The notes beneath the pieces were generated by a model. The model saw only the letters and a program-made list of their open reading frames with translations. It searched no databases and was not told the origin of the DNA. A DNA stretch of 64,000 nt from the human T2T-CHM13v2.0 reference genome, Homo sapiens, in the NCBI RefSeq assembly GCF_009914755.1, contig NC_060926.1. The stretch is one strand, 5' to 3'. Below, piece after piece: positions 13,475 to 63,284 of the stretch. The translations under genes were made by a program, and so were the position numbers. Each line of letters opens with the position of its first letter. Position 1 is the first letter of the stretch.

Positions 13475-13668
<194 letters not shown>

Positions 13669-14047
13669 TGATATAGTTAGGCTTTGTGTCGCCACCCAAA
13701 TGTCATCTTGAATTGTAATCCCCATAATCCCCAGGTGTTGATGGAGAGATCAGGTGGAGGTAACTGAATCATGGGGGTGGGTCCCCCATGTTGTTCTCGT
13801 GATAGCGAGTGAGTTCTCCTGAGATCTGATGGTTTTATAAGGAGCTCTTCCCCGCTTCACCTGGCACTTCTTCCTGCCACCTTGTGAAGAAGGTGCCTTG
13901 CTTCCCGGACCTTTGGCTTCTACCACGATTGTGAGTTTCCTGAGGCCTCCCCGCCATGCTGAACTGTGAGTCAATTAAAGCTCTTTCCTTTATAAATTAC
14001 CCAGTCTCAGGCAGTTTTTTATAGCAGTGTGAAAATGGACTAATACA
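13669..14047 (+). mobile_element. THE1D/MST-like MaLR solo LTR
   Basis: tgatatagttaggctttgtgtc...cccaaatgtcatcttgaattgtaatccc...gaactgtgagtcaattaaa...ggactaataca. Confidence 0.85.
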
Positions 14048-14411
<364 letters not shown>

Positions 14412-25801: not shown

Positions 25802-26201
<400 letters not shown>

Positions 26202-26547
26202 CTATGAAGATGATGAAGATGAAGAAGATTACAGCCTTTGTCCTGAAGGGCTGAGATTCTTGTGGAAGGAAACAGCCCCGACACCCAAAGATGGCCCTCC
26301 ATGGATGGCGGTACCCCTCCAGTAGGGGATGTTGGGCAAGTTAGGAGAAATAGTTAAGTCTGGTGTCAGGGAAGGTGTCTCAGAGAGGGTGAAGGCAGAG
26401 TTGGAAGGAAGAAGCTGAGATTGGGGAGAGGAGCGGGAGGATGTACGTGCCTCATGCATGCATGTATGTGCAGGTGCGGGTGTTGGGGGCTGGGGTTCAG
26501 ACAGAGGGAGCAGCATGCGCAGAGACTTTATCTTATTTTTATGTCTG

Positions 26548-27610
<1,063 letters not shown>

Positions 27611-30529: not shown

Positions 30530-33500
30530 TAACTGAATGCATAACTTTATTAAATAAATGCTTTGTCATGACAAAAGACAAAGATCAAGGAGTAACATAA
30601 ATTATAAGTTGAATAAATAGTATACAGCAATCTTCACTTTTTAAGAAAATGTGAGATCCTTTGTTGGTTTTTTATTTCCTTAAGTACAAAATGCTAAACG
30701 GGAGCCGAGCTCTTCCGCATTCAGGTGTTTTTTTTTTTTTTTTCGGCTTTTTTTTTTTTTTCTCACAAACTGGTTGCATTTGTTGATTTATTTTTCCATC
30801 CTTTTCACCAGTAAAGATTATCATCGTTTATTTTTGTTTTTAAAGTTGAAAACAAAAAAGAGGAGAGAACAGAGTTATGGTATGAATGTATGTAAAACTA
30901 TAGAGAACTACAGTAATATGTACTGTGGTTATTGCTGTCTTCAAAAAAAAAAAGAAAAAGAAAAACAACAACAACAACAACGAAAACAACCGGTAGGCAA
31001 CTCGGAATCTGAAGGAATCTTGTCTGACAACTGTGCTATCCATGTGGGCTACGGTGTGACAGTGGCGGTAGAGAGGAGACTCCGGCTGGCGACCGGGGAC
31101 TGGTGGAGTGGGGTGAGCGGGCACAGGGAAGCTGGGGTCCCCTTCCCCTCGGACCCTCCCCACCTTCCCTTTCCCCATCCAAAAGGATTTCAGGAGAGGA
31201 GGCCAGAGTCTGTGAAATGACTAAACTATATACTCCATTAGAAAACCAAGAAAGTATGTTTGAAATAGAAACAAAAGCCTAAGAGAAAATAAAAAGTGGA
31301 GAAACAGTGCAATGTAATTCTTGCACTTTAGTGGTTTTAAAAACACAGACAGTACAAGGCCCAGGTTGCTGGCTGGTGAAACCCCTGTCCCTCGTCCCTC
31401 CTCCACTTTGCAAAACGGAGCCTCCTTTCTCTTGGAAGCCAGACATATCCTCTCTGACGCTATGGGGTTTCTTCTCCTTAGAGCTCTTCTCTGAGGTTCC
31501 CATTCTGGGCCGGAGCCCTCTCAGGAGTGAGTGGATGGGTCCGGGGTACTGTCCCACCTTGAGGGGGGCTTGGCGGTTGCCGTGGCAGCCCTGTCTCACT
31601 AACCGGTGCGTGGCGGGAGCAGGTGGTTGAGGCCCACCCTCTAGGGGAGGCCAGCCCTGTGGGGGTACCATGGAGGCCACAGAGGTGGTGGTGGGGAGAT
31701 GGGGTGGGAGAGAAGGGGCATGATCAGAAAAGGGCCTCCCTGGACCTCGTGCGCCTGCCTTCCTCCCCTCATGGGGCCAGTGTCCCCAGGCCTGTCTGTC
31801 TAGGCCTGGCTGTCAAAGAAAGGTTCCAGTCTCTTCCTCCCCATGTGCCCTGCTTTGCCAGGTGGGTCAGGGCAGGCTGGAGGAAGGAGGGTCAGTCCTG
31901 GCTGGGCTTCCCTATCTCCTGGCAGTCGTGGGAAAGACAGAGGCATCTTCCTCACTGGTGGAGTGAGGCACGAATCTAAAGGGGATGGGAAGACCTTCTG
32001 TGGGTGTGAGCATGGGAGTGGGCAGCACTTAGATTCGGAGCCATGGATAGTCCGGAGTCCAAGGTCTCTGGGTGAGCAGACAGTCGGCCAAAGGCCAGCC
32101 TGGAGTCAAAGAGACCAGACCCCTGCTTAGATTGCCATACTCGCACCATTCCAAACCTGCCTCCCTCACACCCTGCCATGGGGGAAGAGGTGCCGTCTTC
32201 CTCCAGTGCCTCCCTTCCCAGGATCTCCCCACCCTGGGCTCAGCCAGAACTCCCATTTGGGAGGCTTAGTTCCATGTGTCCATGAAGGCCCAGCTTCTCT
32301 GGGGAGTGACCAGCTGCCCAGGAGAAACTCCTGCATGCAGAAGAGACTCACAGGTTTGGGTTCGCAGGCACGAACTTTGGAAACCGGAAGAGTCTGGCGC
32401 ACTTACACCAGGCTCTAATCCCCCACCTGATGGCTGGCAGCAAAGAGCCAACGCAAGGGGCAGAAGCCTGCTCAAAGTCCAGACACAGTCCGTGAAGAGA
32501 GAGCCCCTCTCAAGAATTAGGTCCAGGCTGGGAGGAATGTGGGGGGAGCTTGTAGTTCCTGGCTCAGTCTTTTCTCAGGGGAGTGGCACCCCAGTATCCA
32601 CTTGGCAGATCCTAGTTGGATAACTGCTCAAGATGCAAAGGGAGAATGGGTGGAAAGAACAGTGACGTGGAAGAGGTTTGGGATACTGGCCTAAGACATA
32701 CAGAAACGTGAGTTGGGTTTAGGGGACAGCTGTGCAGAGAGATGGGGCATGCTGACTCGGCAGGTCAAGGCCTTGTGGCTGCTGGCCCTATCGGGCCCCT
32801 TTGTCTCATGAAGATTGAGCACTTCTCCTGTCCCCAGCCAACTGTCCTGTCCAGGGGCATAGGAGATAGCCCCCAAGTTCTATAGCTATAGGGTTCCCAT
32901 CAGTTGAAACAGATTTGCTTTTTCGCTATTCCTCTTCGTAGCCCCAAATTCGTTGTTGGAGGCGGTCTCCGCTGTGTCATGCCATGAGCAAAGAGTGAAG
33001 AGAGCTGTGTCCACAGCACGAAGGGGTCTCCTTGGCCAGTGTCCAAGCCCCCTTTCCTGGATATCTTCAGCCTTAAAGAACAGTCACAAGGCCACCCATT
33101 GGTTGAGGAAGTCATTGGAGAATGGGAGTTTCGGAATCTGGCTGCCGAGTGACAGCATCCCTGAATCATGCGTTCCCTGCTTGTCCCAGCTTTCCTTCCA
33201 TCCTCCACCCCAGGGAGGATGCAGGGACTGGCCAGAATGGAGGAAGAGCTGGAAAGACTCGTGGGCCTCAGTCCCTCATTGCAGGCTGAAGGTGGGCAGC
33301 GGAGCACATAGTCTTGTCCCTTCCAAAGCATGGCCAGTTTAGACTGATTCTTCCTATCTGGCTTCTAAAGTCTAGCACCCTCCTAAAGTTACTCACCTTC
33401 CCTGGCTCTGCGGCCTGGATTAAGCTCATTTCTATTTTGCAACCCATTCCCCCATTTTCCTCTCTTTCCTCTCAAATCCTAGAAAATACATATGGTGGGG

Positions 33501-41092: not shown

Positions 41093-41813
<721 letters not shown>

Positions 41814-44850: not shown

Positions 44851-45305
<455 letters not shown>

Positions 45306-52479: not shown

Positions 52480-53720
52480 ACCTATGCGGGGCGCGAGGGG
52501 GGTGGAGGAGGGAGTTGATAATGTAACATACACTCTTTCAGACTGTAGATAGGGTACCAGGGGATTTGGACCTTGTGACCGAATAAGAGCTCAGAATCAG
52601 TATTCGGACAGAGTAGGGGGAGGGGGCGGGCAACGTGTGGGTAGGAGGAAGGAGAAAGAGCGAAAGCTGGGATAGACTCGGCTAGACAGTTCCCCCGGGT
52701 AGCAGGATCCTCCAGGGCTCCAATTCCGGGGTGCAAGGACCCTCCCCGACTACTCCCGAGCTGCACCCCAGCTCGAAGCCACTTGCTGCGCAAAGCGCGC
52801 GGGCCCAGCCGGTCTCGTGTCCCCCGCCCGTGCGCCGCGTAACTGACTGGCACACTGAGCGCGCTCACCGATCTTGACTTGCTCGCGGTAGCTCTTTTCG
52901 TTGAGGCAAACCCCGCGGCCGTGCAGCAGGGCGTGCAGCGGCTTCTCCTCGTCCTGCCGGGGGAGGCAGCGCAGCCCCTGGGCGCAGCGCTCGGTGTAGA
53001 CGCCGCACGACTGCCCCTCGGCCAGGGCGCAGGTCATGCAGCAGCCGCAGCCCGGCTCCTTGACCAGCTCGCAGCCCAGGGGGCTGGGGGGGCACATGGA
53101 GAGGGCTTTCTCGTCGCAGGGCTCGCAGTGCACGAAGGAGCCCAGGCTCTGGGCCGGCCCCGCATAGGCGGCCAGCAGCAGGAGGACCGCGGTGAGCAAC
53201 ACCATCTTCTCTTAGTCGCCCCCTTTACCTCGGGGTGGGGCAGGAGAGCGAGAGTGCAGGGATAAAGGGGCCAAGAGGGCCCCCGGAGATTTTTTTGTTT
53301 TTGTTTTTGTTTTAAAATTTCTGGCAGGTAGAGCAGGTGCCCTCCCCCAGACACTTGCAAAAATGTAGAGAGAGGTGGAGGGCTGGGGTGCCTGCGAGCA
53401 GGTCCCAGTTGCAAGAATTAAAGCCTTGCAACAGGTTGGGGGAAGCAGGGCAGCGCCAGGTGCACGCAGTGAGCGGAGGCCGGAGAAACCCTCAAGCCTG
53501 AGCGGGTCAGAATTATAGGGGAAAAAAAGCCACAAAATTGTTCACCCCCAAGCAACCACCGAAATAATGAGATCGGATGCAGTGGAGATGGCGTTGGGGG
53601 TGGGAGAGAAAAATGGATTTATCTTTAAAATTTTTGCTTAAAATCTAAAATACACCCCGCTTTCTAACCCTCAGCTGCCAGCGGTGCGCGGCGCCGCAGA
53701 ACAGGTAAGAGGCGTTGGCT
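52480..53720. promoter_or_regulatory. CpG island over IGFBP5 exon 1 and the start of intron 1
   Basis: Visibly dense CpG and high GC relative to CpG-depleted flanks; further CpG-rich patches near 50500-51000 and 51700-51960. Confidence 0.75.
52869..53205 (-). CDS. IGFBP5: IGFBP5 exon 1 coding part (signal peptide and IGFBP N-domain with GCGCC motif)
   Basis: ATG at 53205 in strong Kozak context (AAGATGG) with in-frame TAA at -9; [33 protein letters not shown]...[10 protein letters not shown]...YREQVKI; donor G|gtgagc; 337 nt. Confidence 0.98.
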
Positions 53721-53977
53721 GCAGCCGAGAGGGTGGGAGAAAATGTTGAAATCAAGAAATTAAAAAACAAAAACAAAAACAAAAAAACCCCAAACCCTAA
53801 CACCTCTTTTCTCCCACTTTGCCACCTCCTCTTCGAAATTCGCAGGTTCTACGCGAAGTCCGGAGAAGGGTGAAAACGGAGGAGGGGTAATGAAAAGGAG
53901 CAAAAAAGGGAAAAAGCCCACACTGCTTTGCAGCTCTTTCCTAGCTCTTTTCCCCTGCAGAAGTTTCCAAAGAGACT
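53206..53977 (-). other. IGFBP5: IGFBP5 5' UTR (~770 nt; TSS approximate)
   Basis: Lies between a position ~25-30 nt downstream of the TATA box and the start ATG; contains no ATG on the - strand. Confidence 0.8.
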
Positions 53978-54001
53978 ACGGGGCTCCGGGAGAGCAGGCG
54001 C

Positions 54002-54210
54002 TTTTAAATAGCCGGCCCCTGGCTGCCAGCCAGTTTGTAGCTGCAATTTGAGCTTCCCAACACCCAACTCAGGCAAGGATGCCAAGGAGCTTTGCAGTAC
54101 AAACTCACACGGGGTGGGGGTGGGGAGAGGCCTTCTAGACACAAGGGGGCTCCCCTTCGCTCCCTGAACAGCGCCCTCCTCCCCTCTGAACAGCGCCCTC
54201 CTCCCCCCGG
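54002..54210 (-). promoter_or_regulatory. IGFBP5: IGFBP5 proximal promoter: TATA box, CACCC boxes, 22-bp tandem duplication
   Basis: TATTTAAAA (cttttaaata 54001-54010); CCCCACCCCCACCCC at 54111-54125; duplicated ctgaacagcgccctcctcccc at 54164-54207. Confidence 0.8.
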
Positions 54211-61924: not shown

Positions 61925-62261
<337 letters not shown>

Positions 62262-62489
62262 TTACCCAATTGGCATAGATTAAATGTGGAGGGTGGGTTT
62301 CTCTGAGACCCAAATGTTGAATATCACGTTTATTTTTATTAAAGCAGCTCATCCTTGAGCAAGTTGCATAACTTTTTCTGGTTCAATTTATTCTTCTGTA
62401 AAGTGGATTATGGTACGTATCAGTGGGGTGTTGTGAGGACTAAATAAGATCATCTATGTAAATCACTTAGCACAGCACCTACTACAAAG

Positions 62490-63284
<795 letters not shown>

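What the first reader, a model, noticed from the sequence alone, without database searches (positions are those of the whole stretch)
53286..53791. Long-range ~37-bp stem closing most of the IGFBP5 5' UTR
Seen: 53290-53322 (tttttttgtttttgtttttgttttaaaatttct) is the reverse complement of 53755-53787 (agaaattaaaaaacaaaaacaaaaacaaaaaaa) at 31 of 33 positions. The repeat count and register match and the complementarity runs into non-repeat flank (AGAAATT). In the mRNA the two mismatches are tandem U-U, and the stem extends 4 more bp (GGGG with UCUC) through G-U pairs that work only on the IGFBP5 sense strand. Inference: the helix would loop out ~430 nt and bring the first ~190 nt of the leader to within ~80 nt of the AUG, suggesting ribosome shunting, an IRES-like scaffold or a dsRNA-protein site. 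Slippage in either microsatellite arm could tune it. I do not know of a description of this element.
Basis: partly seen in the sequence, partly recalled or inferred. Interest (0 to 1): 0.8.

Follow-up and report, generated by a model that had tools for sequence, protein, structure and literature searches.

The report
Long A-U stem in IGFBP5 leader
Two mirror-image simple repeats in the long untranslated leader of the human IGFBP5 mRNA can pair into a helix of about 35 base pairs that loops out 432 bases, but whether cells use it is untested and it is unlikely to let ribosomes jump over the loop.

Summary
Window 53290-53322 and 53755-53787 are an inverted repeat, 31 of 33 complementary, 432 nt apart, built on pure (TTTTTG)3.7 and (AAAAAC)3.8 tracts. 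Both arms lie in the single-exon 774-nt IGFBP5 leader (mRNA nt 193-225 and 658-690; AUG at 775).

RNAfold puts a 28+7 bp helix in the MFE and centroid structures. Thirty of 31 pairs have probability >=0.977. Duplex dG is -37.3 kcal/mol, and each arm is the other's best partner in the whole 6239-nt mRNA.

It is not a transposon pair. Among 60 other genomic (TTTTTG)3 loci, 2 have a partner of <=-35 kcal/mol within 1 kb. Both look like inverted Alu tails.

Shunting or an IRES is not supported:
- The leader has no AUG at all (5.0 expected, P=0.002). The looped-out 432 nt also has none (4.4 expected, P=0.004), which implies ribosomes scan it.
- The loop is not unusually structured (z=-1.6).
- The helix adds only about 15 kcal/mol net.

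Most likely it is a moderate, helicase-sensitive clamp on a scanned leader, or a neutral inverted duplication. No orthologue DNA or in-cell data could be reached, so conservation is untested. No description was found in print.

The parts
53755..53791 (-). 5' arm of the helix in the mRNA (nt 189-225): GGGG + U7 G U5 G U5 G U6 + AAUUUCU
53286..53322 (-). 3' arm of the helix in the mRNA (nt 658-694): AGAAAUU + UUAAAA C A5 C A5 C A7 + UCUC. It ends 80 nt before the AUG.
53323..53754 (-). 432-nt domain closed by the helix. It is unique in the genome, has no AUG, and folds alone with z=-1.60.
53206..53979 (-). Complete 774-nt single-exon IGFBP5 leader (annotated TSS to AUG). AUG is the only absent trinucleotide. 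MFE -275 kcal/mol, z=-4.94 on 20 shuffles.
   Evidence: hub annotation
53203..53205 (-). IGFBP5 start codon (mRNA nt 775-777)
   Evidence: hub annotation
53733..53817 (-). Competing local hairpin (mRNA nt 163-247, -19.5 kcal/mol). GUGGGAGAAAA pairs with UUUUCUCCCAC around the 5' arm. It is predicted before the 3' arm is transcribed and is incompatible with the long helix in a nested fold.

Best explanation
The two arms are a real inverted repeat of non-transposon origin inside the mature IGFBP5 leader. Once the 3' arm has been transcribed, the equilibrium fold is a long-range helix of 28+7 bp, mostly A-U, with a tandem U.U internal loop. It closes a 432-nt domain and places the first 188 nt next to the last 80 nt of the leader.

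The leader is read by ordinary cap-dependent linear scanning through the whole 774 nt, loop included. The helix therefore most likely acts, if it acts at all, as a moderate clamp that helicases must open. The scanning complex (eIF4A, DHX29 or DDX3 type activities) has to open it at the 5' arm, and possibly again at the 3' arm about 80-117 nt before the AUG. That would make IGFBP5 translation sensitive to helicase activity. It would not drive a shunt or internal entry.

Shown here: the sequence, the predicted fold and its robustness, the absence of AUG, and the absence of any repeat family. Inferred: that the helix forms in cells, that it slows scanning, and that it has been selected.
For: Sequence and purity of the arms.

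Predicted fold:
- The helix is in the MFE and the centroid. Leader z=-4.94, with 0 of 20 shuffles as stable.
- 30 of 31 Watson-Crick pairs have P>=0.977 and the last has 0.69. The G.U/G-C extension has P 0.37-0.78.
- Duplex -37.3 kcal/mol on the sense strand against -29.2 on the antisense strand. Forcing the 3' arm unpaired costs 14.8 kcal/mol.
- In the spliced 6239-nt mRNA the arms are each other's best partner (-38.5 and -37.4). The next best partners score -24.9 and -16.3.
- The 5' arm is mostly unpaired (mean paired probability 0.23-0.57) until the 3' arm exists, then rises to 0.93.

Scanning of the whole leader: 0 AUG against 5.02+/-1.87 expected (P=0.002). In the loop, 0 against 4.41 (P=0.0044). 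The antisense strand has 7.

Not a transposon pair or repeat family:
- The loop matches only itself in the genome.
- The arm-plus-flank 26-mer shows no excess over the reversed control, 137 against 114 hits.
- The hub annotation lists no masked repeat here.

Context from papers:
- In MCF7 cells, structure at the 3' end of long 5'UTRs is what determines eIF4A dependence (PMC6936103, abstract and passages).
- Simple repeats were enriched in experimentally captured RNA duplexes in 12 of 14 experiments, and low-complexity sequences in 8 of 14. Those were intermolecular duplexes only (PMC12905285, passages).
Against: - No orthologue sequence could be obtained, so neither conservation nor co-variation of the arms is known.
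- No in-cell probing or cross-linking data could be seen.
- A strong A/U partner near a (TTTTTG)3 tract is not very rare in the human genome. Two of 60 controls reach <=-35 kcal/mol, so the energy alone is only a ~3% outlier.
- The two arms are pure and differ at only 2 adjacent positions of 33. A young, neutral inverted duplication would look the same.
- The helix is A-U rich and gives a net gain of only about 15 kcal/mol. Cellular helicases, scanning ribosomes, or proteins that bind U-rich or A-rich single strands may keep it open, in which case it would have no effect.
- The leader z-score rests on only 20 shuffles.
Confidence: 0.4

Rival explanations
1. Neutral by-product. The arms arose from one mutational event, such as an inverted duplication or template switch, or by coincidence of two microsatellites. 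The helix may form in a test tube, but in cells it is melted or irrelevant, and it has no regulatory role.
For: - Both tracts are 100% pure and differ at only 2 adjacent positions of 33, as a recent copy would.
- 2 of 60 control loci have equally strong partners without any presumed function.
- The net stabilisation is only about 15 kcal/mol.
- Nothing in print points to 5'UTR control of IGFBP5. A 2022 review of IGFBP5 regulation names only miRNAs and lncRNAs under translational control (PMC9453429, passages).
Against: - The strong control pairs look like inverted Alu tails that share ancestry. No repeat family explains this pair.
- It sits in a leader under visible selection, with total loss of AUG (P=0.002).
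- The register, the outer run of 7 and the 7-nt non-repeat flank all match.
- Pairing is 8 kcal/mol better on the sense strand.
Confidence: 0.35
2. The tracts work separately, not as a helix. One version: the U-rich and A-rich tracts are single-stranded protein-binding sites in the mRNA. Recalled candidates are hnRNP C, HuR or TIA1 on U tracts, and PABP on the A-rich tract as in the PABPC1 leader. Another version: they act as poly(dA:dT) DNA tracts that shape nucleosome positions downstream of the TSS (+193 and +658).
For: - Both tracts are low-complexity A/T islands in a leader of about 50% GC.
- The A-rich tract lies 85-108 nt before the AUG.
- The U-rich arm is predicted to be largely unpaired while the leader is being made.
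Against: - Separate functions need neither inverted orientation, equal repeat number and register, nor the complementary 7-nt non-repeat flank.
- No binding data could be consulted here.
Confidence: 0.12
3. A double-stranded RNA platform. The ~35-bp helix is recognised by dsRNA-binding proteins (ADAR, Staufen, PKR). This would lead to A-to-I editing of the A-rich arm, altered decay or localisation, or local PKR signalling.
For: - A predicted near-continuous helix of 28+7 bp.
- It is long-range, as are the Staufen1 duplexes I recall from hiCLIP work. I saw only the search listing for that paper.
Against: - The helix is interrupted by a 2x2 U.U loop after 28 bp. That is at or below the roughly 30-33 bp I recall as needed to activate PKR.
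- No editing or CLIP data were accessible.
- The position in a scanned leader means repeated unwinding.
Confidence: 0.08
4. The helix is the base of a shunt structure or an IRES-like scaffold that lets 40S subunits bypass the 432-nt loop and land about 80 nt before the AUG.
For: The geometry resembles the CaMV 35S leader as I recall it: a long leader closed by a stem, with the take-off and landing sites brought together.
Against: - The loop has 0 AUG where 4.41 are expected (P=0.0044). The leader has none at all, so there is no short uORF before the stem.
- The loop alone has z=-1.60.
- No Rfam family reaches threshold. There are 3 sub-threshold hits, none on the arms.
- The stem is of moderate stability.
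Confidence: 0.05

Closest known systems
Cauliflower mosaic virus 35S RNA leader (ribosome shunt); recalled, not read here
   Same: A leader of several hundred nt whose 5' and 3' parts pair into a long stem, bringing an upstream site close to the start codon.
   Different: The CaMV shunt needs a short uORF that ends just before the stem, and its bypassed region is full of AUGs. The IGFBP5 leader has no AUG at all, and its helix is a single A-U rich duplex, not an extended hairpin.
Cat-1 / SLC7A1 leader, where pairing between the two ends of the leader controls translation; recalled, not read here
   Same: A mammalian mRNA in which long-range pairing within the 5'UTR sets translational activity.
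   Different: There, remodelling depends on translation of a uORF and yields an IRES. No uORF is possible from an AUG here, and there is no sign of IRES-like structure.
Inverted Alu pairs (IRAlus) in mRNAs and introns
   Same: Intramolecular dsRNA made by two inverted copies of one sequence. The two strongest control loci and most pairs appear to be of this kind.
   Different: Alu pairs are about 300 bp, transposon-derived and mostly in 3'UTRs or introns. This pair is 33-37 nt, sits in a 5'UTR and belongs to no repeat family.
Low-complexity or simple repeats as drivers of RNA-RNA duplexes (PMC12905285, passages read)
   Same: Complementary simple repeats give thermodynamically strong duplexes that are over-represented in PARIS, SPLASH and RIC-seq data.
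   Different: That study discarded intramolecular duplexes and dealt with pairing between transcripts. This is an intramolecular pair within one leader.
Structure near the 3' end of long 5'UTRs that confers eIF4A dependence (PMC6936103, abstract and passages read)
   Same: A long leader with a structural element in its 3' part that helicases must open during scanning.
   Different: That work describes local, mostly GC-rich structure in the last 20-60 nt. This is an A-U rich, 505-nt-span helix that ends 80 nt before the AUG. IGFBP5 is not mentioned in that main text.

Membership tests
CaMV-type ribosome shunt element | Short upstream ORF ending a few nt before the base of the stem (recalled definition) | tested here: not met
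   0 AUG in the 774-nt leader. Near-cognate starts were not examined.
CaMV-type ribosome shunt element | Stable stem at the base of the bypassed region | tested here: met
   A 28+7 bp helix, P 0.98-1.0, -37.3 kcal/mol, in silico only.
CaMV-type ribosome shunt element | The bypassed region is not scanned and so tolerates AUGs and structure | tested here: not met
   The loop has 0 AUG against 4.41 expected, P=0.0044. This points to scanning, though indirectly.
Adenovirus / hsp70-type shunt | Complementarity of the leader to 18S rRNA (recalled definition) | not tested
   No comparison with 18S rRNA was made.
Cellular IRES | Cap-independent internal initiation in controlled bicistronic or circular-RNA assays | not testable with these tools
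   This needs experiments. No paper listed links IGFBP5 to an IRES of its own: by title, all 15 listed of 115 concern other topics.
Cellular IRES | A distinct, unusually stable folded domain | tested here: inconclusive
   The loop alone has z=-1.60, and 7 of 100 shuffles fold at least as well.
Evolutionarily conserved RNA structure | Pairs kept across species, with compensatory changes | not testable with these tools
   No vertebrate genomes are held. The exon-1 protein found no locus in genome contigs or viral contigs.
Rfam cis-regulatory families | A match at the gathering score | tested here: not met
   3 hits, all below gathering (23.1 against 75, 17.6 against 40, 15.2 against 35 bits), none on the arms.
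Inverted transposon pair (IRAlu or MITE termini) | The arms or the spacer belong to a dispersed repeat family | tested here: not met
   The loop matches only itself. The arm-plus-flank 26-mer gives 137 hits against 114 for the control, and the exact hit is itself only. The hub lists no masked stretch here.
dsRNA substrate of PKR, ADAR or Staufen | A continuous A-form helix of about 30 bp or more for PKR, less for ADAR and Staufen (recalled thresholds) | tested here: inconclusive
   28 bp, then a 2x2 U.U loop, then 7 bp. No editing or CLIP data were available.

The most novel reading that the evidence does not exclude
The two microsatellite arms are a selected, length-matched pair kept in register across mammals. 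They would form a clamp on a fully scanned, AUG-free leader whose strength can change by slippage. This clamp would set how strongly IGFBP5 translation depends on helicase activity, so repeat-length variants in either arm would act as heritable dials of IGFBP5 output.
Probability: 0.12. Interest if true: 0.7.

Novelty: new member of a known kind. Interest (0 to 1): 0.4.

Why it matters
IGFBP5 is a major modulator of IGF signalling in bone, muscle, breast, fibrosis and senescence. In the papers I could search, its control is described at the levels of transcription, the 3'UTR with its miRNAs, and proteolysis, but not the 5'UTR.

A 774-nt leader that has lost every AUG shows that the leader matters for translation. 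If the helix forms in cells and is conserved, it would be a clean, mutable handle on IGFBP5 protein output. It would also be a rare natural case of a long-range helix built from complementary microsatellites inside a scanned leader, useful for studying how scanning complexes deal with distant pairing.

If it is not conserved, it is a reminder that inverted simple repeats give very confident folds that mean little.

Tried and rejected
Orthologue comparison, the decisive test:
- The search for related loci with the exon-1 protein found no relative in genome contigs (514 pattern matches, none confirmed) or in viral contigs (20, none).
- The own genome has no relatives held.
- No processed pseudogene or second copy of the leader exists in the genome. 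The loop matches only itself.

Genome-wide count of inverted (TTTTTG)3...(CAAAAA)3 pairs by a gapped pattern: the tool rejected both attempts. I replaced this with the plain count, the 60-locus control and the 26-mer count.

Origin and family:
- Transposon or MITE origin is rejected (hub mask list).
- No known RNA family matches; all Rfam hits are below threshold.
- An IRES-like folded loop is not supported.

Literature:
- Ten search calls were made (8, 9, 12, 16, 20, 25, 30, 33, 34, 44, 48; one search was a format error and was not counted).
- Passages were read from PMC3885406 (3'UTR SNVs only), PMC3315736 (a cattle 5'UTR SNP discussed as a transcription-factor site), PMC12265953 (3'UTR, miR-33a), PMC5358755 (WT1 on the Igfbp5 3'UTR) and PMC9453429 (a review that makes no mention of the 5'UTR).
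- None describes structure or translational control in the IGFBP5 leader.
- One search was poorly aimed and gave nothing relevant.

Supplements and earlier notes:
- One supplementary file of PMC11310781 holds no 'IGFBP5'.
Duplex tables that might show or exclude the arm-to-arm contact were therefore not seen.
- Earlier findings of this scan were not open.
Full report
**1. What is in the sequence**

The + strand at 53290-53322 (TTTTTTTGTTTTTGTTTTTGTTTTAAAATTTCT) and at 53755-53787 (AGAAATTAAAAAACAAAAACAAAAACAAAAAAA) form an inverted repeat. It is 33 nt long, 94% complementary, with 432 nt between the arms. Tandem Repeats Finder sees two pure hexamer tracts: (TTTTTG) x3.7 at 53292-53313 and (AAAAAC) x3.8 at 53763-53785, each with 100% matches. 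The match continues past a 2-nt mismatch into 7 nt of non-repeat sequence. Because the tracts have period 6, shifted registers of 16-17 nt also pair (I2 and I4).

**2. Place in the gene**

By the hub's annotation, IGFBP5 exon 1 runs from 53979 to 52869 on the - strand, with coding sequence from 53205. The leader is therefore one exon of 774 nt (53979-53206). A TATTTAAAAG element lies at 54010-54001, 22-31 nt upstream of the TSS.

In mRNA coordinates the U-rich arm is nt 193-225 and the A-rich arm is nt 658-690, with the AUG at nt 775. The mismatches are tandem U.U. GGGG189-192 can pair with UCUC691-694 through two G-C and two G.U pairs.

The arms also lie in intron 1 of the antisense lncRNA. 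There the helix is weaker, -29.2 against -37.3 kcal/mol, but it is still predicted.

**3. Does it fold?**

In silico, very robustly.
- The leader's MFE is -275.0 kcal/mol, with z=-4.94 on only 20 shuffles. The helix is in both the MFE and the centroid.
- It consists of 28 bp (189-216 with 667-694) plus 7 bp (219-225 with 658-664).
- Thirty of the 31 Watson-Crick pairs have probability >=0.977. The terminal pair has 0.69 and the 4-bp extension 0.37-0.78.
- Forcing the 3' arm single-stranded costs 14.8 kcal/mol (-260.2). Limiting the pair span to 450 nt gives -251.4.
- Folding the first 1500 nt of the spliced mRNA keeps the helix, with mean P 0.996 over the 24 core pairs.
- Across the whole 6239-nt mRNA each arm's best partner is the other arm (-38.5 and -37.4 kcal/mol). 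The next best are -24.9 and -16.3.
- In length snapshots, the 5' arm is largely free (paired probability 0.23 at 260 nt, 0.57 at 650 nt). At 260 nt it sits inside a local hairpin, nt 163-247 (-19.5 kcal/mol when that stretch is folded alone), made by GUGGGAGAAAA and UUUUCUCCCAC. At 700 nt it switches to the long helix (0.93).

**4. Is it more than chance?**

There are two answers.

By specific sequence, yes.
- The 26-nt arm including its flank has one exact hit in the 3.1-Gb genome, itself. At <=2 mismatches it has 137 hits (50+87), against 114 (64+50) for the reversed control. One of the 137 is the opposite arm.
- That density gives about 2e-5 for an inverted copy within +/-500 bp of a given locus. 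This is my arithmetic.
- Exact (TTTTTG)3 has 5510+5418 matches. I counted 75 separate loci by hand among the first 100 listed, none with an opposite-strand exact partner within 1 kb.
- With roughly 8,000 such loci, about 0.2 such pairs would be expected genome-wide if the arms were independent. This is a rough estimate.

By energy, the excess is modest.
- I fetched 60 of those 75 loci. Four were skipped as neighbours or duplicates of a fetched locus, and the last 11 were not fetched.
- For each I scored the best duplex between the tract +/-8 nt and any 60-nt window within 1 kb.
- The control median is -24.4 kcal/mol. Three of 60 reach -30, 2 of 60 reach -35, 1 of 60 reaches -37.3 and 0 of 60 reach the -39.0 that the IGFBP5 sense arm gets in the same test. 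The + strand arm gets -30.8.
- The partners of the two strong controls (L041, L018) end in ...GAGACTCTGTCTC or ...GACTCCGTCTC followed by an A-rich tail, which I recognise from memory as Alu 3' ends.

So strong pairs do occur, but through shared ancestry of the arms. Here no repeat family is involved. The 421-nt core of the loop matches only itself, and the hub lists no masked stretch between 45353 and 57939.

In the window, 14 inverted repeats of >=24 nt lie within 1 kb. Twelve lie in or beside masked, Alu-like sequence, one is a pair of T/A runs in the IGFBP5 3'UTR, and the last is this one.

The pair is therefore non-random: either one mutational event copied one arm, or complementarity has been kept by selection. 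The human sequence alone cannot separate these.

**5. What the leader says about mechanism**

AUG is the only one of the 64 trinucleotides that is absent from the 774-nt leader. Dinucleotide-preserving shuffles give 5.02+/-1.87 AUGs, and zero occurs in 0.2% of 5000 shuffles. The antisense strand has 7. The 432-nt loop alone expects 4.41 AUGs, with zero in 0.44% of shuffles.

Selection against upstream AUGs only makes sense where 40S subunits scan, so the loop is scanned.

This argues against shunting over the loop. It also removes the short uORF that the CaMV type of shunt needs (recalled).

The loop folded alone is ordinary: -135.4 kcal/mol, z=-1.60, with 7 of 100 shuffles at least as stable. 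There is therefore no sign of an IRES-like scaffold. Rfam gives only three sub-threshold hits, none on the arms.

The helix is A-U rich. Its -37 kcal/mol duplex energy and about -15 kcal/mol net gain are below the roughly -50 to -60 kcal/mol that I recall from Kozak's work as needed to stop scanning away from the cap.

The best-supported reading is therefore a moderate clamp that scanning helicases must open. That fits the finding that structure in the 3' part of long leaders sets eIF4A dependence (PMC6936103, abstract and passages). Whether the helix forms in cells at all is inference.

**6. Rivals**

- (a) A neutral, possibly young inverted duplication. The pure tracts and the 2 adjacent differences in 33 sites fit this.
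- (b) Separate single-strand protein sites, or DNA-level poly(dA:dT) tracts. These do not explain the register and the flank complementarity.
- (c) A dsRNA-protein platform. The 28-bp continuous run is borderline for PKR (recalled), and there are no data.
- (d) A shunt or IRES, disfavoured as above.

My odds are 0.40 for a functional scanning clamp, 0.35 for (a), 0.12 for (b), 0.08 for (c) and 0.05 for (d).

**7. What is known**

None of my searches of the held library found a description of structure, an IRES, shunting or translational control in the IGFBP5 leader.
- IGFBP5 with 'untranslated region' and 'secondary structure': 25 papers, 20 listed. The two most relevant were read in passages and concern the 3'UTR.
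- IGFBP5 with IRES: 115 papers, 15 listed, none by title about an IGFBP5 IRES.
- 'UTR of IGFBP5' and variants: 15 papers. Of the two read in passages, PMC12265953 concerns the 3'UTR and miR-33a, and PMC3315736 reports one cattle 5'UTR SNP discussed as a transcription-factor site; by title most of the rest concern miRNAs.
- Structure-screen and probing terms, hyperconserved-UTR terms, and cross-linking terms: of the papers listed, only the WT1 3'UTR paper PMC5358755 holds IGFBP5.
- The motif together with IGFBP5: no paper holds both. One search likewise gave nothing.
- A 2022 review of IGFBP5 regulation has no occurrence of 'untranslated' and lists only miRNAs and lncRNAs under translational regulation (PMC9453429, passages).

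Older gene-structure papers from the 1990s are not in the searched library, and supplements were closed, so a mention there cannot be excluded.

Related knowledge: simple repeats are enriched in captured intermolecular RNA duplexes (PMC12905285). CaMV shunting, the Cat-1 leader and inverted Alu pairs are recalled, not read here.

**8. Verdict**

It is a new, undescribed instance of a known kind of feature, a long-range intramolecular duplex from inverted repeats in an mRNA. Its setting is notable: a long leader completely free of AUG.

Interest is moderate at 0.4. It would rise sharply if the arms prove to be conserved and length-matched across mammals, and fall to near zero if they are primate-specific and reactive in cells.

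Noticed in passing
window 53206-53979 (- strand): The 774-nt IGFBP5 leader contains no AUG. It is the only one of the 64 trinucleotides that is missing (5.0 expected, P=0.002), while the opposite strand has 7. This is strong evidence that the full-length leader is scanned from the cap.
   Followed up: yes
window 53733-53743 and 53807-53817 (- strand; mRNA nt 237-247 and 163-173): A perfect 11-nt complement (GUGGGAGAAAA / UUUUCUCCCAC) brackets the 5' arm. Together they form a local hairpin of -19.5 kcal/mol that competes with the long helix and is predicted before the 3' arm is transcribed. It could act as a switch.
   Followed up: partly
window 53598-53610 and 53731-53743: A direct repeat of a 13-nt motif, UUCUCUCCCACCC-like on the mRNA, occurs 133 nt apart inside the loop and next to the 5' arm (D2). 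It may be a pyrimidine-rich protein site or a chance match.
   Followed up: no
window 53620-53652 (- strand; mRNA nt 328-360): A local A/U-rich hairpin (UAUUUUAGAUUUU...AAAAUUUUAAAGAUA) in the loop shares the motif AAAUUUUAAA with the inner end of the 3' arm (D1; helices).
   Followed up: no
window 30730-30758 and 30943-30971: A second, poorer inverted pair of T and A runs (29 nt, 79% complementary, 184 nt apart) lies near the 3' end of the IGFBP5 3'UTR (I13).
   Followed up: no
window 13478-14342, 25868-27299, 41372-41522, 44937-45214, 62052-63153: Several inverted pairs of Alu-like repeats within 1 kb of each other lie in the IGFBP2-IGFBP5 region and in the IGFBP5 intron. These are ordinary IRAlu-type dsRNA sources if transcribed.
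   Followed up: no
L041 and L018 (own genome, contig C1): Two of 60 control (TTTTTG)3 loci have A-rich partners within 1 kb that pair as strongly as the IGFBP5 arms (-37.4 and -35.7 kcal/mol). Both partners look like Alu 3' ends with tails. This gives a useful base rate for findings of this type.
   Followed up: partly
window 54001-54010 (- strand): A TATTTAAAAG element lies 22-31 nt upstream of the annotated TSS, consistent with one sharp start site and hence one defined long leader.
   Followed up: no
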